Of a stretch of 64,000 nt of DNA, positions 24,806-64,000 are shown piece after piece. The notes under the pieces are model-generated. The model was not told the DNA's origin. It searched no databases and worked only from the letters and a program-made list of their open reading frames with translations. The translations under genes were made by a program, and so were the position numbers. Every line of letters starts with the position of its first letter. The stretch's first letter is position 1. The DNA is from an uncultured archaeon (GTDB lineage Archaea > Asgardarchaeota > Jordiarchaeia > Jordiarchaeales > Jordiarchaeaceae), in NCBI GenBank assembly GCA_964510585.1, contig CAZECW010000187.1, positions 31,912 to 95,911 of the forward strand. The letters are read 5' to 3'.

Positions 24806-26251
24806 TTGGAGCCTAAGGGCGCACCAAATCCCATAATTGAATTTAACAGCTTGGTTAGACGGGTTCTAATCGAAATGGGATTCGAGGAAGTTGTACTTCC
24901 CATGATAGTTAAGGAATCCGACGTCTACCAAGAATACGGTCCAGAGGCTCCAGTCATACTTGACAGACTCTTCTATTTAGCCGGACTCCCAAGGCCCGAC
25001 ATTGGTCTAGGTGCTGATTCAATCAAAAAAATTAGGGAAATCGTGCCCGATTTTGATAAAGTTAAGGAGTTACAGGATATTCTGAGACGGTACAAAAAGA
25101 ATGAGATAGAGTCAGACGACCTAGTTGAAACCATGGTTACGGAGCTGGGAGTCAGAGAAGAACAGGCCACGAGTATTTTGGATAATGTTTTTTTGGAGTT
25201 TAAGGAGAGAAAACCGGTTCCCACAGATTTGACTTTAAGGTCACATATGTCTGCGCTTTGGTTTCCAGTCCTCTCCGCGGTTATGAATAAGTGGAAACTT
25301 CCGATACAGCTTTTCACCATAGGAAGAAAATTCAGGAGAGAGCAGAGGTTAGACGCCACCCACCTTTATTCCTCCTACACCGCATCCTTTGTAATCATGG
25401 CGGAAGAAATAACCTTGGAGGATGGTATGGAAATTGTTAGAGACTTTCTGAGAAGGACAGGCTTCCAAGAAGTAGATTTCAGGTTTAAAAAGGCAACCTC
25501 AAAGTACTATGCTCCCCAAACAGAGTTTGAAATATTTGTCAGACATCCCAAATCTGGAGATTGGCTGGAAGTAGGAGACAGTGGTTTCTACTCGCCAGTA
25601 AGCCTCGCGAAGTTTGGTATAGAATACCCCGTACTAAATGCCGGCTTTGGAATAGAAAGATTTGTTATGATAAAAACTGGAGAAACAGACATCCGAAGGC
25701 TTTCCTATCCCTACTTCTACAAAGACGTAGGATTTACTGATGAGGAAATAGCTGAGGGAATCTATATTGAAGAGAAGCCGCAAACCGAAACTGGGAGAAA
25801 AATTATGCAGGAGCTGATTAAAACCGCCGAGGCTCATAGAGATGCGGAGGCCCCCTGTGAATTCGTAGCTTGGAGTGGAACAATTGATGGGAAAAAGGTT
25901 TCAGTCAAAATATTGGAAAAAGATAAGGATACAAAACTTTTGGGACCAGCCATCCTAAACCGAATATACGTCTATGACGGAAACATACTGGGCCTACCAG
26001 AAGAAAAGGCAGTGGGAACACCAACAAACATCCGCTATCTGGACGCTTTAGGAGCCTATGCAGCGCGGAGAATCGAAGAAATGATAGAAAAAAATGAGAA
26101 AAACCTAGAACTGAGAATAAGAATAGCAAAAAAGGCCTCCGACGTCAATATAGGGGTAACCACTCCAGTAAGGCATTTCATAACTTCAAAAAGCAAAAAG
26201 ATAGACATAAGAGGACCAGTATTCTTCACTGTATCCGCATCTGTAGAATAG
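24806..26251 (+). CDS. sepS: O-phosphoseryl-tRNA(Cys) synthetase (SepRS)
   Basis: 'VLDRLFYLAGLPRPDIGLG', 'TLRSHMSALWF', 'IGRKFRREQ' and 'GPAILNRIYVYDGNILGLP' match class-II SepRS segments (from memory). The TTG at 24806 is the first listed start, but the conserved N-terminal helix is encoded upstream; see findings. Confidence 0.8.
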   Translation: MEPKGAPNPIIEFNSLVRRVLIEMGFEEVVLPMIVKESDVYQEYGPEAPVILDRLFYLAGLPRPDIGLGADSIKKIREIVPDFDKVKELQDILRRYKKNEIESDDLVETMVTELGVREEQATSILDNVFLEFKERKPVPTDLTLRSHMSALWFPVLSAVMNKWKLPIQLFTIGRKFRREQRLDATHLYSSYTASFVIMAEEITLEDGMEIVRDFLRRTGFQEVDFRFKKATSKYYAPQTEFEIFVRHPKSGDWLEVGDSGFYSPVSLAKFGIEYPVLNAGFGIERFVMIKTGETDIRRLSYPYFYKDVGFTDEEIAEGIYIEEKPQTETGRKIMQELIKTAEAHRDAEAPCEFVAWSGTIDGKKVSVKILEKDKDTKLLGPAILNRIYVYDGNILGLPEEKAVGTPTNIRYLDALGAYAARRIEEMIEKNEKNLELRIRIAKKASDVNIGVTTPVRHFITSKSKKIDIRGPVFFTVSASVE

Positions 26252-38522: not shown

Positions 38523-40802
38523 TTAAACCACATGGGAAACCGGAGGAGCCGCCTGGTAGAATCTTTCCTCCACCCTCTCATACCACCGCATCATGTCTGG
38601 TGTGACAGTTGGATGAATCTTTTTCAAAGCAGCCTCAAAATGTCGCATATAAACCTTATCCGCATTTATGTCTTCTCGAAGAGCCAGGATAGCTGCCTCA
38701 CGGCACACTGCCTCAATATCTGCCCCAACAAAGTTTTTAGCTTCCCTATTCAACTTTTCAAGATCCACGTCATCGCCGAGAGGCATGCCTCTTCCCCGCG
38801 TGTATAACTCAAATATCTGTAAGCGTGCAGCATCATCAGGAGCAGGAACCAGAATTAAGCGGTCAAAACGGCCCGGACGCAAAAGCGCAGGGTCTAAAAT
38901 ATCAGGACGATTAGTAGCAGCAATCACAACCACATCATGTAAAGTCTCCAAACCATCAATCTCAGTTAGGAGAGAACTAATCACCCTCTCAGTAACCTGT
39001 GAGTCGCCAGCACCCATACCCCTACGTGGCGCCAATGCATCGAATTCATCAAAGAAAATGATGGCCGGCGACGCAAGACGCGCCTTCCGAAAAACCTCAC
39101 GCACTGCCTTCTCAGATTCTCCAACCCACTTCGATAGCAGCTCGGGGCCCTTTACTGGTATGAAGTTTGCTTCGGATTCTGTTGCTACTGCTCGTGCTAA
39201 CAAAGTTTTGCCGCATCCCGGAGGCCCGTATAGTAGTACTCCTTTTGGTGGTTGTACTCCCATTCTGGTGAATGCTTCGGGGTTTTTTAGGGGCCATTCT
39301 ACTGCTTCTCTGAGTTGTTGTTTTACTTCTTCTAGTCCTCCGATTTCTTCCCAGTGTACTGTTGGTACTTCTATGAGTACTTCTCTTATGGCTGAGGGTT
39401 GGATTTCTTTGAGTGCGTTTATGAAGTCTTCTTGGGTTACTTCCATAGATTCGAGGATGTGGGTGGGGATGGTTTCTTCTTCTAGGTCGATTCTGGGTAG
39501 GTATCTTCTTAGTGCTTTCATGGCTGCTTCTCGGCAGAGTGCTTCGAGGTCTGCTCCTACGAATCCGTGTGTGGTTTGGGCTAGTTGTATTATGTCTACG
39601 TTGTCTGCGATGGGCATTCCTCTTATGTGGATTTGTAGGATTTCTATGCGTCCCTGTTTGTCGGGTACGCTGATTTCTATTTCTCTGTCGAATCTTCCGG
39701 GTCTTCTGAGTGCGGGGTCGAGTGCGTTTACTCTGTTTGTGGCTCCTATTACTATGACTTTTCCTCTGCCTTTTAGTCCGTCCATGAGTGCTAATAGTTG
39801 GGCTACTACTCTTCTTTCCACTTCCCCTGTTACTTCTTCACGTTTGGGTGCTATGGAGTCTAGTTCGTCTAGGAATATGATGCTGGGGGCGTTGTCTTCG
39901 GCTTCTTTGAATATTTCTCGGAGTTTCTTTTCTGATTCTCCGTAGAATTTTGACATGATTTCGGGTCCGTTTATTGATATGAAGTGGGCTTCGGCTTCGT
40001 TAGCAACAGCTTTGGCGATAAGTGTCTTTCCACATCCCGGCGGCCCATGGAGTAGTACTCCTTTTGGTGGTTCTATTCCTAGGCGTTTAAATAGTTCGGG
40101 GTGTTTTAGTGGTAGTTCTATCATTTCTCTTACTTTTTGTATTTCTTCGTGTAGTCCTCCTATGTCTTCGTATGTTATTTGGGGTATCCCTGTGGGGATT
40201 TCTGTGAGGGGTTTTTCGCTGATGCGTAGTTCTGTTTGGGGTTTTACTATGACGATTCCTTTTGGTGTGGTTTTTACTACTACGAAGAGGATGGCTCGGC
40301 TTAGGACTGTGATGTGTATGGTGTCTCCTTGGTTTACGGGGTGTCCTACGAGTTTGCTTTTTACGAAGCGCTCGAAGCGTTCTTCTACTGGGAATCTTAC
40401 GCTGGTTGGGGCTAGTATTACTGATGTGGCTGGTTTTTCGTTGGCTTTTCTGATGATTACTTTGTCGCCTAGGCTTACGTTGGCGTTTCGTCTTAGGTAT
40501 CCGTCCATTCGGACTAGTCCTTTGTCTTTGTCTTCGGGGTATGCTGGCCAGGCTATGGCGGCGGTGGTTTTTTTGCCTCTTATTTCTACTATGTCTCCTG
40601 TTTGGATGCCTAGTTTTTCCATTGCGGCGTTATCTATTCTTACTATGAATCTTCCTGCGTCGCGCTTCTGCGCTTCTTCTACACGTAGCTCTATATCTAC
40701 CAATTTGACACCAACTTCAAATTTTTTGGAGGGTTTTTGAGCATCGGTTGTAAAGGGGTATTCTCTACTCATTACATTTGTTTTTGTTAGATTTAAAAAC
40801 AT
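38523..40802 (-). CDS. cdc48: CDC48/VCP-like AAA+ ATPase (two AAA domains)
   Basis: An N-terminal double-psi-barrel-like domain is followed by two Walker A motifs ('GPPGCGKT' twice), two Walker B motifs ('IIFLDELD', 'IIFFDEFD') and an SRH region. Confidence 0.9.
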
Positions 40803-47544: not shown

Positions 47545-49599
47545 ATGGTTAATATGATTAAGGCGTTCCACATTCTTCTGAAGTCCGGTGAGCCCCTTTT
47601 CCACAGGGTTTATGGTAAGGAGCAGGTTGATGAATCGCTTTTTTCGGGGTTTCTAGGCGCTGTTTACAACTTTGCTCAGGAACTGGGCCATGGAGATATT
47701 AAGACTGTGGAGGTTGGTGATGCAAGGTTCGTATGCGAAGTTTCTGAGAACTTGATTTTCGTGGCTGTTGTTGGAAAAGACGACGATGAACAAGAACTAA
47801 AAAATTTTCTAGGCTTTGCTTCTAGAGCCTTTGTTAACCGCTTCAGAGAGGAACTTAAAACATGGCGTGGAAATGTGTCTATCTTTAGGGAATTCACCCA
47901 AGAGTTAGATCACTTAGTGGAAGATTATCAAACGAAGCGCCTCCCCGGTAAGGTTAAACTGGTGCCTTTTCTAAGAGATTCTTCTGGGGGATCAAGTTAC
48001 CCCTTTGATGTGGAAATAGCCTCTGTTTTCTGTTTACTGGAAGATATAAGAGATCGTGGAGGGGGCTTTCTCTGGAAAAAGCCAGAGGAGGCGTTGAGGG
48101 GTATTGTAAGAGTTTTATGGCCTTTTTGGATAGTGCCTTTTGAGGATGGAGACCGGGGAGTTATAGTGGATGCTATGAGTATGGCGCCCCTCCAAATACG
48201 AACCAAGCGTTACTCGGCTTTAGATAAAGCTGATAATTTTCTCAAAATAAATAGTGTAGATGTGTTTGTAAATTCTCTTGAGGATCTAATATTGGATTTA
48301 GAAAGTGAGAAATCGGAGGAATTTCCACTATATGGATTTTTAGTTCCAGAGTTAGTTAAAGATTTGGAGATCAGCTTTTCTCAAGCCAGAGTGGGTGAGA
48401 CTAAGGATTATGTTGTAGTCCGCCCCCTTGTAACTCGCACCCAGACGGTTGAGAATAAAACTGTTTTTATGAAGTTAATTCAAGATTTGGAAACAAGTTC
48501 TCAAAGACTAATGGAAAAGGAAAATTTCTTAACATTAATAACTGAGAAGTGGCTTAAGGTAATAAATGAAAAGATGGTGGAGACCCGGGAAAGTTATAGA
48601 GTCAAAATAGAGGAAACAGTTAAGGATGTCGAGAAGCAGATTGGAATACTCTTACAGCTCAGAGAGGAGGAACTGAAAAAACTTGATGCTTGGTTTGCTG
48701 AAGCAGATAAGAATCTTATACTGGAAATAAAAGAATTGTTTGGTCCACTGATTGAGGTTTTAGAAGATGTGGCGCTGAAATCCACCGAGGAGATAGGAAA
48801 GTCAATCGATGAAAAAATTAGTGTGTTGGAAGTTATAGAGGGGAGAATTCAAAAATTAGCCAACGTTTCGGAGTATATGAATAAGACCAAGAAATTGGTG
48901 GAGAACATTTCTAAGAGTATAAAGAAAATTGATTCAACTATTGAGAAAATAAACAAGAAAATAGAAGTTGACAAAAATTCCATTCTGAAAGACTTTGACA
49001 GAAAAATCATGGAACAAAACAGTCGAGTAGACTCGCTAAAAGAAGAAGCAAAAGATGTCCTCAGCAAACAACAGTTTTTAATGGATAGAATTACATCTAA
49101 ACTCCAAGAATTAAGGCAGCTGATTCAACGTGAACGCAAAGAAGTCGACCGGCTTTTAAAATTGTTAACTTCATTGATAATTAAATTGCCGGACAAAATA
49201 TTTTCTCCATCTCTATTTTATATCCCCCTATATATTGGAAAATTCGAAGATACGAAGCAAGAAAGATTTTTTGTGGTACCCCCATTAGTTCTGCTAAAAT
49301 CGAATGAAACTATTAGTTGTGACTTTGGACAGAAAACACTTCCCCTGGATCTACCTAACCCTGCGTTTCTAGAAGCTGTAAAACGAAAGGCTGAAACACT
49401 AATTAATGATAGTAAGGAGCTAAAATTAGAAATTCTAAAGGGGTTTAAAAAATCAAATCTAATAAATTCGCAACAAATAGAGACAAGCGTTTACGAGGGC
49501 TTAAACAATCTATTACGCCTCAATATTCTTACTGAGAAGGACTTTCAAATTTTGAAAGCTAGAGCCAAGGAGGTTTTTAGGACGGAGGAGAGAGTTTGA
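47545..49599 (+). CDS. large coiled-coil protein with N-terminal Roadblock/longin-like α/β domain
   Basis: The N-terminal roughly 110 aa has a βααββα pattern ('IKAFHILLKSGEPLF...FLGAVYNFAQELG...IKTVEVGDARFVCEVSENLIFVAVVG'). The remainder is heptad-rich and K/E-rich. Confidence 0.5.
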   Translation: MVNMIKAFHILLKSGEPLFHRVYGKEQVDESLFSGFLGAVYNFAQELGHGDIKTVEVGDARFVCEVSENLIFVAVVGKDDDEQELKNFLGFASRAFVNRFREELKTWRGNVSIFREFTQELDHLVEDYQTKRLPGKVKLVPFLRDSSGGSSYPFDVEIASVFCLLEDIRDRGGGFLWKKPEEALRGIVRVLWPFWIVPFEDGDRGVIVDAMSMAPLQIRTKRYSALDKADNFLKINSVDVFVNSLEDLILDLESEKSEEFPLYGFLVPELVKDLEISFSQARVGETKDYVVVRPLVTRTQTVENKTVFMKLIQDLETSSQRLMEKENFLTLITEKWLKVINEKMVETRESYRVKIEETVKDVEKQIGILLQLREEELKKLDAWFAEADKNLILEIKELFGPLIEVLEDVALKSTEEIGKSIDEKISVLEVIEGRIQKLANVSEYMNKTKKLVENISKSIKKIDSTIEKINKKIEVDKNSILKDFDRKIMEQNSRVDSLKEEAKDVLSKQQFLMDRITSKLQELRQLIQRERKEVDRLLKLLTSLIIKLPDKIFSPSLFYIPLYIGKFEDTKQERFFVVPPLVLLKSNETISCDFGQKTLPLDLPNPAFLEAVKRKAETLINDSKELKLEILKGFKKSNLINSQQIETSVYEGLNNLLRLNILTEKDFQILKARAKEVFRTEERV

Positions 49600-54141: not shown

Positions 54142-55428
54142 TTGAAAGCACTAGTACTGGCGGGCGGAACAGGTAAAAGACTCTTCCCCCTAACAGAGAC
54201 TCTTCCCAAATCCATGATTCCACTGGCTGGGAAACCGGTGCTGGAGTATGTTATAGAATACTTGGTTCACACCAACTTGAATGACATCATCATTGTGGTG
54301 GGGCCTAAAAAGGAGCAAATTTGTGATTACTTCTCAACAGGTAAGGATTTCGGGGCAAATATTTCGTATGTAGAGCAAAAGAGACCGGTGGGAGTGGAGG
54401 ACGCGATTCTCACCGCTCTACCCGTATTAGAAAAAGAGGAGGAATTCCTAATTGTTCATTCTGATTTTGTTGCCTCCAGCGAAATAATCCGTAGAGCTAT
54501 AGAATATCATAAGGGTTTAGATTCAGATGCCACTATTGTGATTACCTTGGTTGACGATCCTACTCTTTATGGTGCGGTGGAAATTGATGAAAACGCGAGA
54601 ATAAAGAGAATTATTGAGAAGCCTAAAAAAGAGGAGGCCCCAAGCAACTATGCTGCAGCAGGAGTTTATGTCTTTAAGGGGGAGTTCCTAAAGAAATTAG
54701 AGGAAACAAAGAGATTCGACACATCTGTCCAATCAATGATACAGGAGGATAAAACAGTTTATGGTATGGTTTGGGAAAAGGATTGGACCGAGATAACCTA
54801 TCCTTGGGATATTCTAGAGGCTAATCGATTCATTCTGGCTCAAAGGCTTAAGGGTAAGGGCTCTTTTATTGCAGAGAGCGCGCAGATTGACAGCACTGCC
54901 AAAATAGAGGCTCCGGTTTGGATTTGTGACGACGTGATAATAAGGCCTCGCGCGGTCATAAGAGGCCCCTGTTTCATTGGTCCAGACAGTTTTATTGGTG
55001 ATGGAGCCCTAATAAGAGACCACACCTCAATAGGTAAGCATGTTTCCATAGGGTTCGGAGTAGAAATAAAGAATAGTATAATAATGGATGACTCTTCTGT
55101 TGGAAGATTGAGCTATATTGGCGAGAGTATAATAGGGAGATCAGTTAAAATAGGGGCGGGAACCCAGACGTGGAATATTAAAATGAGGGGAGGCCCCCCA
55201 ATAGAAATGAATATTGATGGTAAAAAAGTTCCAGTACCCGCAGAAAGATTCGGTGCCATTATAGGGGAGAATGCCGAAGTAAGCATTAACGTGTCAATAT
55301 TTCCAGGCAAAAAAATTGGAGCGGGGTCAACAGTGTTTCCCGGAGTGATAGTTGAGGAGGATGTTCCTTCATATTCAGAGGTAAGAGCCAAACAAGAAAT
55401 TGAAACCATAGCAAAAAAGGGATTCTAA
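54142..55428 (+). CDS. sugar-1-phosphate nucleotidyltransferase with C-terminal left-handed β-helix (GlmU-like)
   Basis: 'KALVLAGGTGKRLFPLT...PK.MIPLAGKP' is an NTP-transferase motif. Hexapeptide repeats occur in the C-terminal half. Confidence 0.7.
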   Translation: MKALVLAGGTGKRLFPLTETLPKSMIPLAGKPVLEYVIEYLVHTNLNDIIIVVGPKKEQICDYFSTGKDFGANISYVEQKRPVGVEDAILTALPVLEKEEEFLIVHSDFVASSEIIRRAIEYHKGLDSDATIVITLVDDPTLYGAVEIDENARIKRIIEKPKKEEAPSNYAAAGVYVFKGEFLKKLEETKRFDTSVQSMIQEDKTVYGMVWEKDWTEITYPWDILEANRFILAQRLKGKGSFIAESAQIDSTAKIEAPVWICDDVIIRPRAVIRGPCFIGPDSFIGDGALIRDHTSIGKHVSIGFGVEIKNSIIMDDSSVGRLSYIGESIIGRSVKIGAGTQTWNIKMRGGPPIEMNIDGKKVPVPAERFGAIIGENAEVSINVSIFPGKKIGAGSTVFPGVIVEEDVPSYSEVRAKQEIETIAKKGF

Positions 55429-55435
55429 TTTAGAA

Positions 55436-56062
55436 TTGTCCGTGATACCTATGTTGGATGCTTTTTATCAAAAATTAGGTGAGGACATCAAAACCGCTAA
55501 CGATTTGGAGAAGAGGGGGGATTTTAGAGCTGCGGCGAAACTTTGGATTGAGATAGCTGAATACTGCTTAAAATTTGCTAGATCTGAATATGCTTCTGAG
55601 GAAATTAGAAAAAACCTTATTGAGAGGTCTGAAGGCTATATTGAGCATGCAAAAATGCTAAAAATTAGACCAGCACCCTTAAAGGGCTCCATAGAAAAAA
55701 GCTCCCAAGCAATAGACTATTTGGAAAAAGCTTTGGATGATAAGGTTAGAGCTGATAAACAGTGGATGGCCCTTGACCTAAACTCGTACATAATGACTAT
55801 GTTTAGTGTAATTGAAAAACTCCTCTACCACGTTTATATATCCAAAACGGGTAATCTTCCAAGCCTCGAAGAAACATTTACTTCTCTTGTTAAATGGGCC
55901 TACAGGGAAGGAATCATCAGTGATCACCCCGACAATATTGAATTCGTTAGGCTCCTTTACGAAAAATTATCCAAAAAATCGCAAAAAATAACTAGTGAAC
56001 AGGCTATGGAAGCAAGAGAAATAATGGAGCGAGTGTATAAAGAGTTATGCGAAAACCTATAA
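55436..56062 (+). CDS. MIT-domain protein (standalone; no AAA domain)
   Basis: Residues about 10-80 form a three-helix pattern that aligns by eye with Vps4/spastin MIT domains ('DLEKRGDFRAAAKLWIEIAEYCLKFA...RKNLIERSEGYIEHAKMLK'). Confidence 0.45.
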   Translation: MSVIPMLDAFYQKLGEDIKTANDLEKRGDFRAAAKLWIEIAEYCLKFARSEYASEEIRKNLIERSEGYIEHAKMLKIRPAPLKGSIEKSSQAIDYLEKALDDKVRADKQWMALDLNSYIMTMFSVIEKLLYHVYISKTGNLPSLEETFTSLVKWAYREGIISDHPDNIEFVRLLYEKLSKKSQKITSEQAMEAREIMERVYKELCENL

Positions 56063-56076
56063 TTTTCGCATGCCTT

Positions 56077-56778
56077 CTACTTCTTTTTCCAAACCTTCTT
56101 TATTTCCTCTTCAGAGGCTAGTCTGAAGGTTTGAGTTTCTGCGTCAATGATGCCTAAATCTATGTCTTCAGGCTGAAGGTTTTCAGAAACTTCTCTCAAG
56201 GTGTCTACCGCCAGTTTTAACATTTCACTTATCGACATATCCTCTTTATACCCTGCTTTCAGAATTTCCAAAGCCTTAGGTTCATTAGCCCCAACCGCTG
56301 CAGCTTTGCTTTTGGTCAAGGCTCCCGAAGTGTCTATGAGAACTATTTCCGGGCCCCCTCTGCTTATTCCTCCAAAAAGTAAGGCACATCCAAATGGGCG
56401 TGTTCCTCCTAACTGTGTAAAGCGCTGCATGAGACGCCCTAGCCTTTGGGCAAGTGTACTAACATCTATTTTTTCATCGTATGTTACTCTATACGATTGA
56501 GCTATGATTCTTGCTCTGTCAAGTAGAAGTCTTGAATCCGACATGTATCCGGCACTTGTGGCGCCTATGTGGTCGTCTATTTTCAAAACTTTTTCATGGG
56601 ATTCAAGCAGTTTGCTATGTGTTTTCGCCACCCCTGCCAATACCACGCCCTTAGATGTTTTTATTCCGACAGCCGGCGCTCCTTTTTTAACTGCTTCGCT
56701 GGAATACTCCACTTGAATAATACGCCCTTCAGGAGAGTACATGGTGCTACTTTTATCATAATCCATCTCGTCGGACAT
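56077..56778 (-). CDS. psmA: proteasome α subunit
   Basis: The α-type N-terminal extension 'YDKSSTMYSPEGRIIQVEYSSEAVKKGAPAVGIK' and an Ntn-hydrolase body are present. Confidence 0.85.
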   Translation of the reverse strand: MSDEMDYDKSSTMYSPEGRIIQVEYSSEAVKKGAPAVGIKTSKGVVLAGVAKTHSKLLESHEKVLKIDDHIGATSAGYMSDSRLLLDRARIIAQSYRVTYDEKIDVSTLAQRLGRLMQRFTQLGGTRPFGCALLFGGISRGGPEIVLIDTSGALTKSKAAAVGANEPKALEILKAGYKEDMSISEMLKLAVDTLREVSENLQPEDIDLGIIDAETQTFRLASEEEIKKVWKKK

Positions 56779-57004: not shown

Positions 57005-57829
57005 TTACTTGCTAGAAATTTTTTTGAGCACATCTTGAATATCATATAAGCAGGTTAAGACACTTTCTATATCAAGTATATCCTGCTGGAGCAAGTTGCC
57101 AGCACGTGAAAGATCTATCTGTAATCTGAGCATAAAGGGCGAAAAACCTTCATTTAATTCAGGGTTTTCCGTATAAATCGCCGCGTGTATCAAGTCAACG
57201 CCACCAAAGCCCAGGTCGAAAAGCAAGTCGTCAACTTTCAAAAGAAATTCGACTATTCGTTGCTTATCACCCTTGGTGCGTAGTTCTGCCTCGGCATCAG
57301 ACAGACTCTTACTAATCTCGTCCAGCCTCTTTTTCAGAGAATCCGTGTTTATAGGCATCTCCTCTCGATACATTGTTGCCTCTGGACAGAAATTAAACCA
57401 CCACTCAAGGTAGTGCGCTGTGCTGCAAAAGAATTTTTTATCATGATTTAATGGCTCCACGGAAACAGTGTACATGCATTCTTCACCACAAATAGTGCAA
57501 ACCCCAGCCCCATCTTGATATGGTCTAATATCTCCACAAAAAGGTACACGAACGTACATAGCGTCGCCTTTAGGGGGTAAAAGTTTGGGGGGAATTTGCA
57601 ACTCTTTACTGAACGGTTTTGAGTCTAATTCGGCAAATATTGCAGTCCAGACCGGGCCTCGTGGAGTTCTAACTAAAAGAGGGTTTCTTCTCGGGTGGTT
57701 GTTGCAATATGTCCAATACGGATCTTCGATTTTGAATTTTCTAACCTCACAGAAGGGCTCTTGGCTTTTATCACTATTTGCTTTATTGAATTTACAGGTT
57801 CCACAGCAATCGCTGCCACCATTAGGCAT
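57005..57829 (-). CDS. cysteine-rich hypothetical protein (N-terminal Cys cluster, C-terminal helical domain)
   Basis: 'CCGTCKF...C..C' is followed by multiple further Cys residues. There is no family match by eye. Confidence 0.3.
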   Translation of the reverse strand: MPNGGSDCCGTCKFNKANSDKSQEPFCEVRKFKIEDPYWTYCNNHPRRNPLLVRTPRGPVWTAIFAELDSKPFSKELQIPPKLLPPKGDAMYVRVPFCGDIRPYQDGAGVCTICGEECMYTVSVEPLNHDKKFFCSTAHYLEWWFNFCPEATMYREEMPINTDSLKKRLDEISKSLSDAEAELRTKGDKQRIVEFLLKVDDLLFDLGFGGVDLIHAAIYTENPELNEGFSPFMLRLQIDLSRAGNLLQQDILDIESVLTCLYDIQDVLKKISSK

Positions 57830-58187: not shown

Positions 58188-59726
58188 GTGACTTTCACTA
58201 GGTTTTTTAAAGGCGGTGGGTTCGATTTGATGTCCCTGGATAGATTCAAGTGTACTTCTTGTAATGAGGCTGAGGCGGCTTACTACTGTGAGGAGTGCAA
58301 ATCAGCTTTCTGTCTGGGATGCGCCCAGGAGAGAAGGGAGGAGTTTTTTATCTGCGGTTCATGTGGCTTCAAGGAAACAAACCTTGGAATGGATAGGGAT
58401 AAGAAAAGCTCCTCAAGATGTCCGAATTGTGGTTCAACTGATTTGAGATCTGGGATTAGAAAATGGAAACTTTGTCCTAATTGTCGCTCTGGTATGGTTA
58501 TAAGCGTTCAAGATAAGAGGGTGGAGCTTAAAAAAACCTTTATTGATAATGTTAACAGCATTCTATATGGTTATGAATTGTTGAAAGATTTTTCGAGGAG
58601 ACTTAGGGAAACTAGAAAGAGGCTAATCTTTCTCAGGCACAGAAGGTATTTCCACTATCCAAAAATGGAGGAAACTCTAATCTCCCTTTTCCAAGAAATT
58701 ATTTCCTTGAAAAAGAAGGTGGAGGCGCGGGCTCAACAGGTCTTAAATGTGATTCAAGTGCAACTCGTGGATTTTTCTTACCCTGATAATTGGAGCCCAC
58801 GTGATTTTGCACAGATTCAAACAGCTGTGGACAGGATAAAAGCCGATGTGAATGACTACAAAGTATATGTGAAGGGTCTTATGGAACTACCTGAAAGGAA
58901 TCTCGATACGGTTGTTTCCTTGGTAAAATTGCTGAGTTTTCATTGGAAGTTCTTTGAGGAACATAGAGAAAAAATTGATTTAGAAATTGGGGAAAAACCT
59001 GTGGCAGCCATTCAGAGGGTAAAATATGTGGGAAGCTCTTTTCTCAGTTTAGAAAAATGTAGTGGAATACTTTTGTTAACAGATAAAAGGATAATTTTTA
59101 TCAGAGAAAAAGGAATTTTAAACAAGTCGTACCAGAAACATTTTGAACTCCCCCTAAAAGCTCACAAAATCGTAGTTGAAGGATCAATATGGAAAAAACT
59201 CTCTTTTGAAGGTTCCCAAGGGGATGTGCGATTCTCCGCATCCAAAAATACCCTAAAAGCAATTGAAAGATACGTAGAATTGGCTAAAAACTTTGATAAA
59301 AGTTCCATAAAGGATAAAACCCAAACTGACAAATTGGAAAAGCTGGAAATAACCCTAGACGACCTGAAAACTGAGCTACACAAAAAAATTATGAGCGTTT
59401 TCACACCCCAAATTAAGGAGCCCACTCGCGGATTTGAACTACAGCCACCTGTTCCCACCGTTACCCCCAGAGTTGCTCAAAAGTCCGCACCCCCACTAAC
59501 CACTTATAATCGGGTACAAGTTCAAACTGTGGAAGGATCAAAAAGAGGGGATGTTCTGGATTGGGAACGAAGGAAATTCTCCATTGAGCAGCTTCTCAAA
59601 AAAATTGAGGAACTTTGGCGGCGTGGAGACATTTCTGTAGAGGAGTACCTGAAAAGAATGAAGAATCTTTATGAGGAACTCTACGTCTTGAACCAGAAAT
59701 TAAAGGAAATCGAAGTTCAGGCGTAA
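58188..59726 (+). CDS. multi-zinc-finger / coiled-coil / PH-like (GRAM or bacterial-PH) / SHOCT-like tail protein
   Basis: The N-terminal B-box-like 'CTSCNEAEAAYYCEECKSAFCLGCA' is followed by two CxxC ribbons and a long coiled coil. 'GILLLTDKRIIFIREKG' is PH/GRAM-like. The C-terminal 'ELWRRGDISVEEYLKRMKNL' is SHOCT-like. Confidence 0.45.
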   Translation: MTFTRFFKGGGFDLMSLDRFKCTSCNEAEAAYYCEECKSAFCLGCAQERREEFFICGSCGFKETNLGMDRDKKSSSRCPNCGSTDLRSGIRKWKLCPNCRSGMVISVQDKRVELKKTFIDNVNSILYGYELLKDFSRRLRETRKRLIFLRHRRYFHYPKMEETLISLFQEIISLKKKVEARAQQVLNVIQVQLVDFSYPDNWSPRDFAQIQTAVDRIKADVNDYKVYVKGLMELPERNLDTVVSLVKLLSFHWKFFEEHREKIDLEIGEKPVAAIQRVKYVGSSFLSLEKCSGILLLTDKRIIFIREKGILNKSYQKHFELPLKAHKIVVEGSIWKKLSFEGSQGDVRFSASKNTLKAIERYVELAKNFDKSSIKDKTQTDKLEKLEITLDDLKTELHKKIMSVFTPQIKEPTRGFELQPPVPTVTPRVAQKSAPPLTTYNRVQVQTVEGSKRGDVLDWERRKFSIEQLLKKIEELWRRGDISVEEYLKRMKNLYEELYVLNQKLKEIEVQA

Positions 59727-59808: not shown

Positions 59809-60444
59809 TTACTCCTTTTCTTTGGGCTTCTTTGAACTCTCCAATTCCCTTTTCAGGTCTTCTAGCTCAGATGCCAAGGAAGATTTTTCTGTTATTATGT
59901 CCCCCTGCGGTACTTTGGGTTCCTCTATGCCCTCCAATGCAATTTCCGCCTCTAGACGGTTTAACTCACTTTCAATATCTCCTGCCTCTTCGACGCCCAT
60001 TTCGGAAGGAGTTGCCAAAATGTCTGAGCTTCTAGAAATATCGCGCATAGCTTCCTCTTGCTCTATAATCATTTCGAGTATCTTTTCTGAGTTGACGAGT
60101 TTTCGGGCGTTTTCAAGCTCTGCTCCGGCGAGTTCAAATGCTTCCTTGAGTTCTAAGACATCATAGGCTTCTTCTATGGCGATGATTCTCGTTTCAAGGT
60201 TCTCAATAAATGCGGTGTACTTGCCTAGAAAATTCTGGTATCTTCTGAATTTTCTGAGGGCGAATGTTGCCATGCCTTTGTTGCCCATTTTTAGATACTG
60301 TTTAGCCTTGTTTCTTTCCTCGATTGCCTTCCTCTCGTAGTTTCGTGAACGCAGAGTTAGCCTATTTATACTAGTTCTTAGCTGTGCGATTATCTCGTCC
60401 TTGTTTTTGGGCCTTTTTCCAAAGAGTATATCTTTAATACTCAT
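59809..60444 (-). CDS. ESCRT-III / Snf7-family protein
   Basis: The α1-α2 hairpin 'AIEERNKAKQYLKMGNKGMATFALRKFRRYQNFL...LETRIIAIEEA' is the Snf7 signature. The C-terminus is acidic with a MIM1-like 'LEDLKRELE'. Confidence 0.7.
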   Translation of the reverse strand: MSIKDILFGKRPKNKDEIIAQLRTSINRLTLRSRNYERKAIEERNKAKQYLKMGNKGMATFALRKFRRYQNFLGKYTAFIENLETRIIAIEEAYDVLELKEAFELAGAELENARKLVNSEKILEMIIEQEEAMRDISRSSDILATPSEMGVEEAGDIESELNRLEAEIALEGIEEPKVPQGDIITEKSSLASELEDLKRELESSKKPKEKE

Positions 60445-60540: not shown

Positions 60541-61578
60541 CTACCCATATATTCTGTTTATTTCTTTTTGTCTGGTTTCAATAAAATCGATGAAATTTTC
60601 CAGTGAAGGATCCTCCTCAGCTTCTTCATGAACTAGTTCTGCTATGCTGAGCAGGGAGGCTGCTACATGTGTGCGTGCGGGCTCGGATTTTATCTCGGGC
60701 TTAATGAGAGCTACTATTCTCTTTTCAAAATCATTGAAAGTTAAAATCCTATCCACAAGGAGAATAAATGATTCGGTTATTCCCCTCTCCAAGTCCTGTT
60801 TTTCGTCTAATATCAAGTTGGCTGCCAGATTTTTGAGGGCCGGTTTCACAATGTCCTCTCTAAACCAATTGAAAAGTTTGCTCTTCTTATCTGATGGAGG
60901 AAGAAAGCTTGAAGCAGGGGCACTAATATTTTTAGGCTCTTTTTTAAGGTTCTCCGCCATTTTATGAATATTTGAACTTTTAATGGTCTCCATTGCCGCT
61001 AGTACCAGCGACTTCACCCCCAAAACCACTTCTCCTCTACTAAACCCCTCTAACATTTTTTCCAGAGCATGTCTGGCTTCCTCGAAGGAAACCTCTTTTG
61101 AAATAAAAGACTTGAAAAGTTCCAAGATTTTTGCTCTTGTTTCCAGAGCTTCACTGTAACCAACGCTATCCAGTGTCAAGATTCTGTAGCCTGGATCCAG
61201 AACTTGCTTGTCAAACCATCTTACAACTATGTATTCATCAGTAATTCTCTCTAAATCTTTTAGAGTAAGTTTGGGATCAGCTTCCTCCAACTCATTGCAA
61301 AGCTGCGAAGCGAATGTTTCAAATACTGAAGAGACGTAGTTTTGGAGAACTTCATCCAATTTGAGACCTTCTAAAATCTTCTCAACCCTCTTTTTGAACG
61401 CGGGCTCAGAAATTTTTCCCTCCACCCGCTTTTTAAAATATGGAAACACTTTCTCCCTGACCATTTGAGATTTCTCAATAAAATTAGCTACAATACTGTC
61501 TAGGACGCCGAAAACCACATACTCAAAAAATTCTCTTAAGATTTTTAGACCCTCTTCTGAATCAAAAATGTAGGGCAT
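60541..61578 (-). CDS. hypothetical α-helical protein (345 aa) between the HerA-like ATPase and Snf7 genes
   Basis: There is no motif. Its position inside the putative operon is the only evidence. Confidence 0.3.
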   Translation of the reverse strand: MPYIFDSEEGLKILREFFEYVVFGVLDSIVANFIEKSQMVREKVFPYFKKRVEGKISEPAFKKRVEKILEGLKLDEVLQNYVSSVFETFASQLCNELEEADPKLTLKDLERITDEYIVVRWFDKQVLDPGYRILTLDSVGYSEALETRAKILELFKSFISKEVSFEEARHALEKMLEGFSRGEVVLGVKSLVLAAMETIKSSNIHKMAENLKKEPKNISAPASSFLPPSDKKSKLFNWFREDIVKPALKNLAANLILDEKQDLERGITESFILLVDRILTFNDFEKRIVALIKPEIKSEPARTHVAASLLSIAELVHEEAEEDPSLENFIDFIETRQKEINRIYG

Positions 61579-61594
61579 TTAAATTCACCAAGAA

Positions 61595-63964
61595 TCATTC
61601 GATGAGTGACCTGCGCAGCTGCTCGATTTTTTCGAAAGTTTTCCTCTTTAAGAAAACATATTCATCCTCAGTCATCCTACCCAACTCAAAGTACTCATGT
61701 AGGCTCCTCAAATATTTCTGGAATTTCTCTATCTGCCTCAGAATCTCCTCCTGCCTTTTCTCCTTATCAGACACCTGTTCTTCCTCCTCTTCCTCTAATG
61801 GTTTAACACCCACTGGTTCGCTTACCGGTTTACTAATTTCCGGTTTAACGCCCTCTTCGGCGCTGATTCTGGGTATTGGTGGTGGGCTGGGTAATTCTGG
61901 AAGTTCTTCCTCTGTTATGGTTTCTCTCGTTAAGGGTTTTGGTCTTGGTGTGCGGGGAGCCGCCTTTAAGCCTTTAACTGTCTCTTTAATTGTTGTTACC
62001 ATGCCTGCTGCCTCATTTTTAAGCGCCGAAGTGGATGAAACACTAATTATTGTGTTTTCCTCGGTTTCAACTATCCCTACGGCCAATCTTGATTTCTCCT
62101 TGGAGGCTAAAACTACAGGTACGCTTTTTGTTGTGTCTATCTCTATTTGCCAACCTTCCTCCTTCAATTTTGTGTAGATTTCACGGATGGCTTCTCTGCT
62201 ATGCGCCTGTGTCACTATTGGTTCTGCTACTCCCTCCATTTTGGGGGCAGGGTACAAATGATCATAAAATCTGTATTCCAAGACTCGTTTTAGGTAGTCG
62301 GAGGCCAAATCCGTCGGTAAGCTGAGCACGGGCGGGGCTGGTATTGATATGTCTGGGGACACTTCCACCATTTCTTCTTCTGTAACTTCTTCCAAAGCTT
62401 CTAAAGCCTCAGCCTCTGCTTCGGGTGTGCCTCTTGTTTCCTCAACAGTTTTCTCAATTTCTGGAGTGGCAACCTGTTTTGAAGCAATGGCTGTGAGTTC
62501 TTCAATTATCTTGGGAAGGGCTTCGCGGCCAGAATGCTGACTCAGCCTGGGTCTTATCTTAACTACAAGGGCACGGTTACTTGTGATAGATTCGTCTGAA
62601 ACAATGGTCATTCCAACGGGAATGTTTCGTATAAATCCAGAATCCTTTATTTCTATGGGGACTTCCGCTGGTGATCTTTTTATGAAGGCAATAATGTCTG
62701 GTTCATAGGACAAATAGTGTGTTATCAACACGTCTAGTTGAGATAAAATTCTACTATCTGTGGCTGAGGGTTGCTGGGTCACAAGCACTAATCCACAGCC
62801 GGGTTTTCTTCCCAGTTTAGCATATTCTACGAGGGGTTCAGAAGCTGCGGTAACACCCTTAGAGGGAGCGAGTAGATGCGCTTCGTCAATCATCAGCCAA
62901 GTCACAGGAATCTCCGCCTCAACCTTTTCATCGATTGTTTCGCCCAACTGTGCAGCCTCTTCCATTCTTGATATCTGTGCTCTCACCTTGAGTATCTTAC
63001 GTGCCAGTATACCAATGATTAGGGCACGCAGGCTGTCATCTAGATGACTTACGTCAATGACAGATACCTGATTGGGAACCGCTAACTGAGTTAAGCTAGT
63101 TCCTTTGGCTGAGAAGATTCCCCACTGATTCGCAGATGAAAGTCTAGCAACCAAAGCTCTTCTAGTGTCACGTCTAAATCCTTTGTCCTCAGAAATGATG
63201 TCGGAACAATTCTCGATACATTTAATTAAATCCTCTATGCTGTAATCGTTTCCTTTACCGGGGACATCTAGTTCTTGGTCATCAATTGTAGCTCTGTAGC
63301 CTTTTTTAACCCTATCAATGACCTGTTCTGTTAAGAGACCGAGCGTGCTAAACCTGTCTATACCAAAGGTGTGGCACCAATCGTCAGCTGTTAACTCTGA
63401 AGGCCTCAACGAGAAGGGCTTATCCCTCGTTTGCTCCGGAACCTTATCATAGAAACCGATTGGAATAAAGACCTTCACGTTATCGAAGCCCTTGGGAGTG
63501 AGACTCCATTTTTCAAGAGCCTCCAATTCCTTTTCGTCCCAATTGGGGTACTTCATACTCCAAAAAATTCCCATAGGATCAACAATAATTGTAGCGATTC
63601 CCAGTCTTGATTCAGCCAATTCCTCCGCAATGACTCCCATAGTGTAGGATTTGCCAGAGCCCCTATGACCACTTATAAATATAACGTGAGGCTTTACCCC
63701 ATCAAGAAGAACCTTACAACCAAGCAGGTTCACATCTTTGCTGGTTCTCTCTCCCACACAACCAATGTAAAATGTTCCCTTGCAGCCAAGTTTGGCTTGT
63801 GTGGATTTTGTTCTCCCCAAAATTACTGATTCGCCCAAACTGTCTCTCAGAACGGTGAGTGGAGTGTCAACTATTTTAGGCGTGTCAACTATGTTTACCT
63901 TCTCAGAGTTAATTATGCTCGCCTCACCAAGAATGTAGGCCAACGCCTGCCAATAGTCCTTCAA
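61595..63964 (-). CDS. HerA/FtsK-superfamily (DUF87-like) ATPase with long acidic/Pro-rich linker and SHOCT-like C-terminal tail
   Basis: Walker A 'ISGHRGSGKSYT', 'IIVDPMGIF' (HerA 'DPHGEY'-like), Walker B 'LMIDEAHLL' and 'GRKPGCGLVLVTQQPS' are present. The C-terminal 'LGRMTEDEYVFLKRK' is SHOCT-like. Confidence 0.7.
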   Translation of the reverse strand: MKDYWQALAYILGEASIINSEKVNIVDTPKIVDTPLTVLRDSLGESVILGRTKSTQAKLGCKGTFYIGCVGERTSKDVNLLGCKVLLDGVKPHVIFISGHRGSGKSYTMGVIAEELAESRLGIATIIVDPMGIFWSMKYPNWDEKELEALEKWSLTPKGFDNVKVFIPIGFYDKVPEQTRDKPFSLRPSELTADDWCHTFGIDRFSTLGLLTEQVIDRVKKGYRATIDDQELDVPGKGNDYSIEDLIKCIENCSDIISEDKGFRRDTRRALVARLSSANQWGIFSAKGTSLTQLAVPNQVSVIDVSHLDDSLRALIIGILARKILKVRAQISRMEEAAQLGETIDEKVEAEIPVTWLMIDEAHLLAPSKGVTAASEPLVEYAKLGRKPGCGLVLVTQQPSATDSRILSQLDVLITHYLSYEPDIIAFIKRSPAEVPIEIKDSGFIRNIPVGMTIVSDESITSNRALVVKIRPRLSQHSGREALPKIIEELTAIASKQVATPEIEKTVEETRGTPEAEAEALEALEEVTEEEMVEVSPDISIPAPPVLSLPTDLASDYLKRVLEYRFYDHLYPAPKMEGVAEPIVTQAHSREAIREIYTKLKEEGWQIEIDTTKSVPVVLASKEKSRLAVGIVETEENTIISVSSTSALKNEAAGMVTTIKETVKGLKAAPRTPRPKPLTRETITEEELPELPSPPPIPRISAEEGVKPEISKPVSEPVGVKPLEEEEEEQVSDKEKRQEEILRQIEKFQKYLRSLHEYFELGRMTEDEYVFLKRKTFEKIEQLRRSLIE

Positions 63965-64000
63965 ACTTTTAAGATCAATTTGTTCCGCAATATATCTTCT

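What the first reader, a model, noticed from the sequence alone, without database searches (positions are those of the whole stretch)
55436..56062. Standalone MIT-domain protein near an ESCRT-III gene whose C-terminus carries a MIM-like helix
MIT domains bind ESCRT-III MIM helices. The canonical MIT carrier, Vps4, is absent from the window. This 208-aa protein has an MIT-like three-helix N-terminus plus an unknown C-terminal domain, and it lies about 4 kb from the Snf7 gene, whose tail reads 'SELEDLKRELESSKK'.
Basis: inference. Interest (0 to 1): 0.6.

Follow-up and report, generated by a model that had tools for sequence, protein, structure and literature searches.

The report
MIT–HEPN protein near ESCRT-III genes
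A small protein found only in one narrow group of Asgard archaea joins a genuine MIT domain, the module eukaryotic proteins use to dock onto ESCRT-III membrane-cutting filaments, to a HEPN-fold domain. Its closeness to an ESCRT-III gene has not been shown to be more than inherited gene order.

Summary
The ORF at 55436..56062 (+) is real. Its true start is probably the ATG at 55451, giving 203 aa. It is conserved in 17 protein clusters, all from Jord-/Freyarchaeia (Asgard).

Its N-terminus is a true MIT domain:
- Pfam MIT matches all 18 orthologues, though below the curated cut-off.
- A family profile hits solved MIT domains at E=6e-5.

Its tail forms a predicted terminal helix with MIM1-like hydrophobic spacing, preceded by a conserved P-x-x-P element.

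The proposed functional link is not established:
- MIT–HEPN stays near Snf7 only in close relatives whose whole ~20 kb is collinear.
- A more divergent Jordarchaeales locus keeps the Snf7 cluster without it.
- Published tables list Vps4 in Freyarchaeia genomes.

What is deeply linked to this Snf7 is a HerA-like ATPase with a ~345-aa partner. In Lokiarchaeia this pair sits inside the canonical Vps4/ESCRT/ubiquitin cluster.

Verdict: a new MIT-domain architecture, plausibly an ESCRT-III-tail-binding accessory factor, of moderate interest.

The parts
55451..56062 (+). MIT-HEPN gene. The likely start is the ATG at 55451 (203 aa). The mechanical ORF starts at a TTG at 55436 (208 aa).
   Evidence: ORF list. 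17 homologous clusters of at least 72% identity all start at the ATG-equivalent. There is a 22-nt spacer after the stop of the upstream NTP-transferase gene.
55451..55666 (+). MIT domain, a three-helix bundle (ORF residues ~6-77).
55667..55717 (+). Flexible linker (ORF residues ~78-94), variable in length among orthologues.
   Evidence: pLDDT below 50 for residues 79-93. Insertions of up to 8 residues occur here in the orthologue alignment.
55718..56059 (+). HEPN-fold domain, five helices (ORF residues 95-208). The R157-x6-H164 string is not conserved at the Arg.
59809..60444 (-). ESCRT-III (Snf7-family) gene, 211 aa.
   Evidence: Pfam Snf7 E=8.9e-18. The AF2 model has the ESCRT-III helix pattern.
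59836..59907 (-). Predicted terminal helix of Snf7 (residues 180-203), carrying L-x3-L-x2-L-K (LASELEDLK).
   Evidence: AF2 helix 180-203. The motif L-x3-[LI]-x2-L-K is kept in both ESCRT-III paralogues of the cluster and is closely matched in the Lokiarchaeial Snf7 that sits next to Vps4.
59908..59925 (-). Proline element E-P-K-V-P (residues 174-179) ahead of the terminal helix. It loosely resembles a MIM2.
   Evidence: P176 and P179 are invariant across both Jordarchaeial paralogues. P176 is invariant across four Asgard lineages. The paralogue reads L-P-S-A-P.
58188..59726 (+). Context: 512-aa protein with Zn ribbons, a PH-like domain, a coiled coil and a steadiness-box-like end. This architecture has been described as a likely Asgard ESCRT-I component.
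   Evidence: Weak Pfam hits to Zn ribbons, bPH_3 and Vps23_core. Architecture described by Makarova et al. 2024, PMC10936438. Conserved next to Snf7 in all Jordarchaeial loci.
60541..61578 (-). Context: 345-aa helical protein of unknown function, the conserved partner of the HerA-like ATPase.
   Evidence: No Pfam, NCBIfam or PADLOC hit. 35% identical (E=2e-77) to the gene after the HerA-like gene in a Lokiarchaeial ESCRT cluster. Homologues also follow it in Thor- and Heimdallarchaeia.
61595..64000 (-). Context: HerA/FtsK-type ATPase, cut by the end of the window. It is ~1012 aa in a near-identical contig, where a second Snf7 follows it.
   Evidence: Pfam DUF87 and HerA_C. Full gene and second Snf7 in L009. 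Family widespread in Asgard and other archaea.
54142..55428 (+). Context: sugar-phosphate nucleotidyltransferase gene ending 22 nt upstream of the MIT-HEPN start. It is possibly co-transcribed.
   Evidence: Precomputed Pfam NTP_transferase, hexapeptide and LbH_EIF2B families on the orthologous gene in every related locus. Spacing read from the sequence.
56077..56778 (-). Context: proteasome alpha subunit gene, convergent with MIT-HEPN. It separates MIT-HEPN from the ESCRT-III block.
   Evidence: Pfam Proteasome E=9e-46.

Best explanation
The gene encodes a lineage-specific two-domain protein: an N-terminal MIT domain, a ~15-residue flexible linker, and a C-terminal HEPN-fold domain.

The most likely mechanism is as follows.
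- Inferred, not shown: the MIT domain docks onto the exposed C-terminal tail (P-x-x-P element plus terminal amphipathic helix) of polymerised ESCRT-III. The published asCOG table lists two ESCRT-III families for Freyarchaeia genomes, matching the two Snf7 genes of this cluster. One lies 3.7 kb away, and the other about 8 kb away, just past the window end.
- Inferred from what HEPN domains generally do: the HEPN domain dimerises. The protein would then be a bivalent MIT adaptor or regulator that works alongside Vps4, which the same table lists for Freyarchaeia genomes. Eukaryotic MITD1 and Vta1/LIP5 pair MIT domains with a dimerising C-terminal module in the same way.
- The HEPN domain is probably not an RNase, because the arginine of its only R-x6-H string is not conserved.

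Shown: the gene, its conservation, the MIT homology, the HEPN fold, and the ESCRT-III fold and tail helix. Inferred: MIT-tail binding, HEPN dimerisation, and lack of catalysis.
For: MIT homology:
- Pfam MIT matches 18/18 orthologues.
- A profile of the N-domain puts nine MIT domains first among solved structures, best E=5.9e-5.
- The family HMM finds the MIT of a Lokiarchaeial Vps4.

Groove residues: VPS4A V13 and L64, whose mutation abolishes MIM2 and MIM1 binding (PMC11218997), align without gaps to aliphatic residues I18 and I69. I69 stays aliphatic in all 18 orthologues. Residue 18 is Thr in two.

Ligand side:
- Both ESCRT-III paralogues of the cluster, and the Lokiarchaeial orthologue beside Vps4, keep a terminal helix motif L-x3-[LI]-x2-L-K after a P-x-x-P element.
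- Asgard Vps4 MIT domains have been shown by ITC to bind such tails (Lu et al. 2020, PMC7240154).
- The Freyarchaeia asCOG table lists two ESCRT-III families, one copy each, plus Vps4.

Architecture: human MIT proteins are typically MIT plus an effector or dimerisation module recruited to ESCRT-III tails (PMC9477494).

Location: 3.7 kb from the ESCRT-III block in the window, and near the same block in eight fetched related loci.
Against:
- The gene is not in the ESCRT-III operon. It is on the other strand, separated by the proteasome alpha gene and a variable spot, and sits 22 nt behind a sugar nucleotidyltransferase gene.
- Linkage is seen only among close relatives whose whole ~20 kb is collinear.
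- The divergent Jordarchaeales locus L011 keeps the ESCRT-III block without MIT-HEPN.
- The sister MIT + Zn-ribbon family in Lokiarchaeia has no ESCRT neighbours.
- The Snf7 helix has Glu/Asp where a canonical MIM1 has Arg.
- Some MIT domains bind non-ESCRT ligands, for example Atg1-Atg13.
- Pfam MIT scores stay below the gathering cut-off.
Confidence: 0.45

Rival explanations
1. The MIT domain has a partner other than ESCRT-III, and the position near Snf7 is inherited gene order. The protein would act in an unrelated process, for example with the co-directional sugar nucleotidyltransferase gene 22 nt upstream. Alternatively it could be a small HEPN-type ligand-binding protein with a helical protein-interaction head.
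For: - There is a 22-nt spacer to the upstream NTP-transferase gene, and the same order occurs in all related loci that reach that far.
- The whole region is collinear, so proximity to Snf7 carries little information.
- L011 keeps the ESCRT-III block without the gene.
- The closest MIT relatives, the Lokiarchaeial MIT + Zn-ribbon proteins, sit among non-ESCRT genes in both contexts read.
- MIT domains with non-ESCRT ligands are known.
Against: - Most characterised MIT domains bind ESCRT-III tails.
- Aliphatic residues align with both VPS4A groove positions.
- The organism's ESCRT-III tails carry conserved MIM-like elements.
- Nothing ties HEPN or MIT domains to PF00483-type sugar nucleotidyltransferases.
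Confidence: 0.3
2. It is an ESCRT-III-recruited nuclease. The MIT domain brings a catalytically active HEPN RNase dimer to sites of ESCRT-III assembly. There it could process or destroy RNA at budding or division sites, or act as a defence triggered by virus budding.
For: - An R-x6-H string with an invariant His precedes a helix.
- MIT-plus-enzyme architectures are the rule in eukaryotes.
Against: - The Arg is replaced by Gln in 4 and Lys in 1 of 18 orthologues that are otherwise at least 72% identical. One orthologue (P0014) has no basic residue at either of the two positions.
- There are no PADLOC defence-family hits.
- No homologue was found in viral contigs.
- There is no neighbouring antitoxin-like minimal nucleotidyltransferase.
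Confidence: 0.15
3. It is a HEPN toxin of a HEPN-MNT-type toxin-antitoxin pair, with the upstream nucleotidyltransferase as antitoxin.
For: The best structural matches include HEPN toxins of HEPN-MNT pairs (5yep, 7ae2, 8xdj). A gene annotated as a nucleotidyltransferase lies directly upstream.
Against: - The upstream gene is a 428-aa PF00483 sugar-phosphate nucleotidyltransferase with a hexapeptide-repeat C-domain. It is not a minimal Pol-beta-type MNT.
- The RX4HXY motif is absent; the sequence reads R/Q/K-x6-H-P-D.
- There is no PADLOC hit.
- The locus is stably syntenic among housekeeping genes rather than mobile.
Confidence: 0.03

Closest known systems
MITD1 (human MIT-domain-containing protein 1)
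   Different: The C-terminal module of MITD1 is a phospholipase-D-like membrane-binding domain, whereas this one has a HEPN fold. There is no sequence relationship beyond the MIT domain. ESCRT-III binding is untested here.
Vta1/LIP5
   Different: Vta1 has two tandem MIT domains and a VSL domain that binds Vps4. Here there is one MIT and a HEPN fold. Vta1-like proteins were reported in Njord-, Hod-, Loki- and Thorarchaeia, not in Jordarchaeia.
MIT domain of Vps4/CdvC
   Different: There is no AAA+ ATPase or Vps4_C domain, so the protein cannot disassemble filaments by itself.
Small single-domain HEPN proteins (AF0298/UPF0332, TT1696, HEPN toxins of HEPN-MNT pairs, sacsin HEPN)
   Different: This domain is fused to MIT. 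There is no MNT partner, no conserved Rx4-6H or RX4HXY motif, and no relative detectable by sequence outside the family.
Lokiarchaeial MIT + Zn-ribbon proteins (unnamed; P0019-P0053)
   Same: They are the closest sequence relatives of the N-domain (E 1e-7 to 8e-4 against 1.84 billion representatives). They are of similar size (200-280 aa) and also have the MIT at the N-terminus.
   Different: Their C-terminal half is an acidic disordered linker, a conserved LPxGFKEI...DFKIITPHD motif and a Zn ribbon, not a HEPN domain. They are not encoded near ESCRT genes.

Membership tests
MIT domain (Pfam PF04212) | Antiparallel three-helix bundle of about 70 residues | tested here: met
MIT domain (Pfam PF04212) | Sequence-profile match to the family | tested here: inconclusive
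   Pfam MIT gives E=7.9e-5 but 23.1 bits, against a curated cut-off of 30. All 18 orthologues match, best 1.4e-5. A broader family profile reaches E=5.9e-5 and 7e-4 on solved MIT domains, with nine MIT hits first. The match is statistically significant but below Pfam's own threshold.
MIT domain (Pfam PF04212) | Binds a MIM element, typically an ESCRT-III tail, in the H2/H3 or H1/H3 groove | not testable with these tools
The only indirect evidence is that aliphatic residues align with VPS4A V13 and L64.
HEPN superfamily | Four- to five-helix up-and-down bundle of the HEPN type | tested here: met
HEPN RNases (catalytic subgroup) | Conserved Rx4-6H motif forming a composite active site | tested here: not met
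   The only such string in the domain is R157-x6-H164. The Arg is Gln in 4 and Lys in 1 of 18 orthologues; the His is invariant.
HEPN superfamily | Homodimerisation | not testable with these tools
   Only monomer prediction was available.
HEPN-MNT toxin-antitoxin pair | Adjacent minimal (Pol-beta-type) nucleotidyltransferase and an RX4HXY motif | tested here: not met
   The upstream gene is a 428-aa PF00483 sugar nucleotidyltransferase. The motif is absent. There is no PADLOC hit.
Vps4 / CdvC | MIT followed by an AAA+ ATPase cassette and a Vps4_C domain | tested here: not met
   The protein has 203-208 aa, no P-loop, and a HEPN fold as its second domain.
Vta1/LIP5 | Tandem MIT domains plus a C-terminal VSL domain | tested here: not met
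   There is one MIT domain only, the C-domain has a HEPN fold, and there is no Pfam Vta1 hit.
ESCRT-III (the neighbouring gene, 59809..60444) | Snf7-family core hairpin plus an autoinhibitory or MIM-bearing C-terminal helices | tested here: met
   Pfam Snf7 E=8.9e-18, above the cut-off. The AF2 model has helices 15-52, 56-92, 96-137 and 154-171 and a terminal helix at 180-203.
MIM1 (canonical consensus, from my own knowledge: (D/E)xxLxxRLxxL(K/R)) | Leu at i, i+4 and i+7, with Arg at i+3 and a terminal Lys/Arg | tested here: inconclusive
   The tail reads L-A-S-E-L-E-D-L-K and the paralogue reads L-E-K-D-I-K-K-L-K. The hydrophobic spacing and the terminal Lys fit, but the Arg position holds Glu or Asp. 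Lu et al. describe Asgard MIM1-like motifs as Leu/Ile-rich C-terminal helices.

The most novel reading that the evidence does not exclude
MIT-HEPN could be an ESCRT-III-targeted effector that has no eukaryotic counterpart. A HEPN dimer, either an RNase or a nucleotide- or RNA-sensing module, would be delivered by a MIT-MIM contact to sites where the cell's only two ESCRT-III proteins polymerise. Membrane scission, vesicle formation or virus budding in an Asgard archaeon would then be coupled to RNA cleavage or sensing. It would also mean that the MIT-MIM cofactor code, in which many different effectors hang on ESCRT-III tails, was already diversifying in archaea with its own lineage-specific effectors.
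Probability: 0.12. Interest if true: 0.75.

Novelty: new variant of a known kind. Interest (0 to 1): 0.45.

Why it matters
In eukaryotes, ESCRT-III tails recruit about twenty different MIT-domain cofactors, including kinases, proteases, deubiquitinases and severing ATPases. This recruitment network is usually treated as a eukaryotic elaboration.

Two families of small non-Vps4 MIT proteins appear here in Asgard archaea: MIT-HEPN in Jord-/Freyarchaeia and MIT-Zn-ribbon in Lokiarchaeia. If they bind ESCRT-III, cofactor recruitment through MIT-MIM contacts began before eukaryotes, with partners that eukaryotes do not use.

Binding can be tested directly with a 75-residue domain and two ~45-residue tails.

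If instead the MIT domain binds something else, it would be an early example of MIT use outside the ESCRT system.

Tried and rejected
- **Co-folding.** I submitted a MIT-(GGS)n-Snf7-tail chimera.
- **AFDB Foldseek search.** I wanted to find other MIT+HEPN architectures, but the library was not available.
- **Genome-collection scans with broader alignments.** The MIT alignments A3 and A4 had no stretch conserved enough to build a search pattern. The scan with the narrow alignment A1 found only five Jord-/Freyarchaeial species.
- **Viral contigs.** No relative was found.
- **Single-sequence search of solved structures.** Nothing meaningful came up. Only family profiles reached MIT domains.
- **Sequence relatives of the HEPN half.** None was found outside the family among 1.84 billion representatives, so its active-site register could not be aligned residue by residue to characterised HEPN RNases.
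- **Vps4 replacement idea.** I considered that this cluster replaces Vps4 with the HerA-like ATPase, with MIT-HEPN supplying the missing MIT. I rejected it because published asCOG counts list Vps4 in all analysed Freyarchaeia genomes. The HerA-like module also sits next to a normal Vps4 in Lokiarchaeia, with no MIT-HEPN there.
- **Vta1-like ESPs of Eme et al. 2023.** I checked whether MIT-HEPN is what they reported. It is not, because those were not found in Jordarchaeia.
- **HEPN in Makarova et al. 2024.** That paper's HEPN mentions are unrelated neighbouring HEPN genes.
- **C-terminal motif shared by the HerA-like and 512-aa proteins.** The similarity is not significant (E=0.18).
- **Promoter and terminator scan.** I did not run it, because the tool models bacterial sigma-70 signals.

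Full report
**Observation.** The ORF at 55436..56062 (+) is present as described. It starts at a TTG, but all 17 homologous protein clusters begin at the equivalent of the ATG at 55451 (MLxAFYQKL...). The product is therefore most likely 203 aa. All homologues are 72-97% identical, and every one that carries an organism name comes from Candidatus Freyarchaeota, Jordarchaeia or Jordarchaeaceae, except one MAG labelled Lokiarchaeia. An exhaustive HMMER scan of 1.84 billion cluster representatives found one full-length representative only. A scan of one genome per GTDB species found five species, all Jord-/Freyarchaeial. No viral contig encodes it. The window is therefore Asgard (Jord-/Freyarchaeia), and the gene is a narrow lineage-specific invention.

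**The N-terminal domain is a real MIT domain.**
- Pfam MIT matches residues 18-76 at E=7.9e-5 (23.1 bits, against a curated cut-off of 30). It matches all 18 orthologues, best 1.4e-5.
- A profile of the orthologues ranks seven MIT domains first among all solved structures, though weakly at E about 0.1-0.2.
- After adding the distant Lokiarchaeial relatives, the profile reaches E=5.9e-5 (chitin synthase MIT) and 7e-4 (VPS4A MIT). The first nine hits are all MIT.
- The AF2 model has mean pLDDT 85.9 and three helices at 3-26, 30-48 and 55-77.
- The family HMM also picks out the MIT domain of a genuine Lokiarchaeial Vps4 among 2,580 ORFs (E=4.8e-5).
- In the ungapped alignment to VPS4A, V13 and L64 align to I18 and I69. 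Mutating those two VPS4A residues abolishes MIM2 and MIM1 binding respectively (PMC11218997). I69 stays aliphatic in all 18 orthologues; residue 18 is Thr in two.

**The C-terminal domain is a HEPN fold, not an unknown.** After a disordered, length-variable linker (residues 79-93) come five helices at 95-206.
- Pfam HEPN aligns end to end but weakly (E=0.072 here; 8 of 18 orthologues, best 7.3e-4).
- The only R-x(4-6)-H string in the domain is R157-x6-H164. The His is invariant, but the Arg is Gln in four orthologues and Lys in one, although the family is at least 72% identical overall.
- There is no PADLOC defence hit.
- The upstream gene is a 428-aa sugar-phosphate nucleotidyltransferase, not a minimal MNT antitoxin.
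- I therefore read the HEPN module as most likely non-catalytic, serving dimerisation or ligand binding. This is inference.

**The ESCRT-III neighbour.**
- The gene at 59809..60444 (-) is a Snf7-family protein (E=8.9e-18).
- Its model shows the ESCRT-III helix pattern, a disordered stretch (137-152), helix 154-171, a proline-containing linker and a terminal helix at 180-203.
- Related contigs show a second Snf7 paralogue (24% identical) just beyond the window end.
- Both paralogues keep P-x-x-P (EPKVP, LPSAP) followed by L-x3-[LI]-x2-L-K. The Lokiarchaeial orthologue encoded beside Vps4 keeps a single proline followed by the same helix motif.
- The hydrophobic spacing and terminal Lys fit a MIM1. 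The canonical Arg is replaced by Glu or Asp.
- Lu et al. 2020 describe Leu/Ile-rich MIM1-like helices and Pro-rich MIM2-like motifs in Asgard ESCRT-III. They showed by ITC that Asgard Vps4 MIT domains bind the two classes of Asgard ESCRT-III subunit.

**Is the linkage meaningful?**
- In eight fetched Jord-/Freyarchaeial loci, MIT-HEPN is followed by the proteasome alpha gene, the Zn-ribbon/PH/coiled-coil protein and Snf7. Where the contig reaches further, the 346-aa gene, the HerA-like ATPase, the second Snf7, a methyltransferase and TauE follow.
- In the loci long enough to show it, the upstream ~10 kb is equally conserved: Alba, a 681-aa protein, CofH, CofG, PheA, a glutamine amidotransferase and the nucleotidyltransferase. 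The conservation is therefore that of closely related genomes, not specific evidence of a functional tie.
- MIT-HEPN is on the opposite strand from the Snf7 operon. It is separated from it by the proteasome gene and a variable spot, which holds a 274-aa Cys-rich ORF in the window and other small genes in L001.
- It sits 22 nt behind the nucleotidyltransferase gene.
- The HerA-like protein of a divergent Jordarchaeales genome is 40% identical. That locus keeps TauE, the methyltransferase, Snf7, HerA, Snf7, the 484-aa protein and proteasome alpha. The synteny then breaks, and no MIT-HEPN is found within 10 kb.
- The Lokiarchaeial MIT + Zn-ribbon relatives lie among unrelated genes in both contexts read.
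- The refutation criterion "no conserved linkage" is thus neither met nor cleanly avoided: linkage exists only over a range too short to be informative.

**Vps4.** It is absent from the window. The only classical AAA Walker-A matches belong to CDC48 at 38523..40802, and the other scanned ORFs are housekeeping. However, Supplementary Data 5 of Valentin-Alvarado et al. 2024 lists, in all seven Atabeya-/Freyarchaeia genomes, the Vps4 asCOG (at least 1 copy) and Vps25 (1 copy). It also lists two ESCRT-III asCOGs, at one copy each except that one genome lacks one of them. The column headers were not in the part I read, but every column is at least 1 for Vps4. MIT-HEPN is therefore an additional MIT carrier, not a substitute for Vps4's MIT. 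The two Snf7 genes of this cluster are probably the organism's only ESCRT-III subunits. If the MIT domain binds any ESCRT-III tail, it binds one of these two.

**Mechanism proposed (confidence about 0.45).** The MIT domain binds the exposed tails of polymerised ESCRT-III, and the HEPN domain dimerises. Together they would give a bivalent accessory factor comparable in layout to MITD1 or Vta1/LIP5. The domain identities are shown; binding, dimerisation and lack of catalysis are inferred. The rivals are:
- a non-ESCRT partner with merely inherited proximity (0.30);
- an ESCRT-III-recruited active HEPN RNase (0.15);
- a HEPN-MNT-type toxin (0.03).

**Comparison with known systems.** Human MIT proteins are typically a MIT domain plus an effector module recruited by ESCRT-III tails through at least seven binding modes (PMC9477494). 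A MIT-HEPN combination was not found in the literature I could search. The only paper holding all four search terms (MIT domain, HEPN, archaea, ESCRT) mentions HEPN only as unrelated neighbouring genes. Eme et al. 2023 report Vta1-like proteins in other Asgard lineages but not in Jordarchaeia. I file this as a new variant of a known kind: an MIT-domain cofactor with a new partner domain.

**What the surroundings revealed.**
- The Snf7 gene's deep genomic partner is not MIT-HEPN. It is a HerA/FtsK-type ATPase (Pfam DUF87 and HerA_C; about 1012 aa, cut by the window end) with a ~345-aa helical protein.
- Homologues of the ATPase occur throughout Asgard and other archaea.
- In a Promethearchaeota contig, Snf7, the HerA-like gene and the 344-aa gene follow each other with 42- and 7-nt gaps. 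They lie directly opposite Vps4 and Vps25, flanked by UEV, Vps28 and Vps22 on one side and by Arf, RING, ubiquitin, E2 and E1 genes on the other.
- In a Heimdallarchaeial contig the order is HerA-like gene, 304-aa gene, Snf7.
- A Thorarchaeial contig keeps the HerA-like gene and its partner without Snf7. A Bathyarchaeial homologue stands alone.
- The partner proteins are homologous to one another: Jord to Loki 35% identity, E=2e-77; Jord to Thor E=2e-9; Heimdall to Thor 42% identity.
- I found no paper linking HerA or DUF87 to ESCRT.
- This lies outside the finding I was given, but it may be the more interesting lead.

**Verdict.** Novelty: new variant of a known kind. Interest: 0.45.

Noticed in passing
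window 60541..64000 (-); L009:873-5625; L012:9344-13649; L013:10001-14876; L011:9384-13806; L016:6906-10665: A HerA/FtsK-type ATPase (~870-1015 aa) and a homologous ~300-350-aa helical partner form a conserved two-gene module in Jord-, Loki-, Heimdall- and Thorarchaeia. The module is directly adjacent to ESCRT-III genes in Jord- and Lokiarchaeia, and one gene away in Heimdallarchaeia. In Lokiarchaeia it sits inside the canonical Vps4/Vps25/Vps22/Vps28/UEV + ubiquitin cluster. I found no paper connecting HerA or DUF87 with ESCRT. This suggests a second, non-AAA+ ATPase associated with Asgard ESCRT-III.
   Followed up: partly
P0019-P0053; L002:4535-5200; L014:10001-10732: Lokiarchaeota/Promethearchaeota encode a family of 200-280-aa proteins. 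Each has an N-terminal MIT-like domain, an acidic disordered linker, a conserved LPxGFKEI...DFKIITPHD motif and a C-terminal Zn ribbon. They are the closest relatives of the MIT domain studied here. They do not reach Pfam MIT on their own, and they are not encoded near ESCRT genes.
   Followed up: partly
window 58188..59726 (+): This 512-aa protein has Zn ribbons, a PH-like domain, a coiled coil and a weak Vps23-core/steadiness-box-like end. It matches the 'Znr_PH_CC_SB' architecture that Makarova et al. 2024 propose as an Asgard ESCRT-I component. It is divergently placed next to Snf7 in all Jordarchaeial loci, including the divergent L011.
   Followed up: partly
window 61595..63964 (-): The 789-aa ORF listed here is an artefact of the window end. 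The real HerA-like gene runs past base 64000 and is ~1012 aa in a near-identical contig. A second Snf7 gene (203 aa) lies just beyond it.
   Followed up: yes
window 59908..59925 (-) and L009:873-1484: Both ESCRT-III paralogues carry a conserved P-x-x-P element (EPKVP, LPSAP) just before the terminal helix. They would therefore have tandem MIM2-like and MIM1-like elements, an arrangement known from human IST1.
   Followed up: partly
window 57005..57829 (-): This 274-aa Cys-rich ORF has no family hit. It occupies a variable spot between the proteasome alpha gene and the Zn-ribbon/PH protein. It is present only in the closest strain (L010) and is replaced by other small genes or nothing in L001 and L004-L008.
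   Followed up: no
window 47545..49599 (+): This 684-aa protein has an N-terminal longin domain of the FUZ/MON1/HPS1 type (E=6e-7) and a long coiled-coil region. It is conserved at the same place in the Jord-/Freyarchaeial loci that extend that far.
   Followed up: no
window 63964..61595 C-terminal end and 59560..59726: The HerA-like ATPase and the 512-aa protein both end in a helical segment with a similar G-[RD]-[MI]-[ST]-x-[DE]-E-Y motif. The pairwise similarity is not significant (E=0.18).
   Followed up: partly
window 12537..14159 (-): A DDE transposase (DUF4277 + DDE_Tnp_1) lies in the only GC-rich patch of the window (GC 0.50 against about 0.41 elsewhere). It is probably an insertion sequence.
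   Followed up: no
window 24806..26251 (+): This is a class II tRNA synthetase with a weak SepRS C-terminal domain hit. It is possibly an O-phosphoseryl-tRNA synthetase.
   Followed up: no
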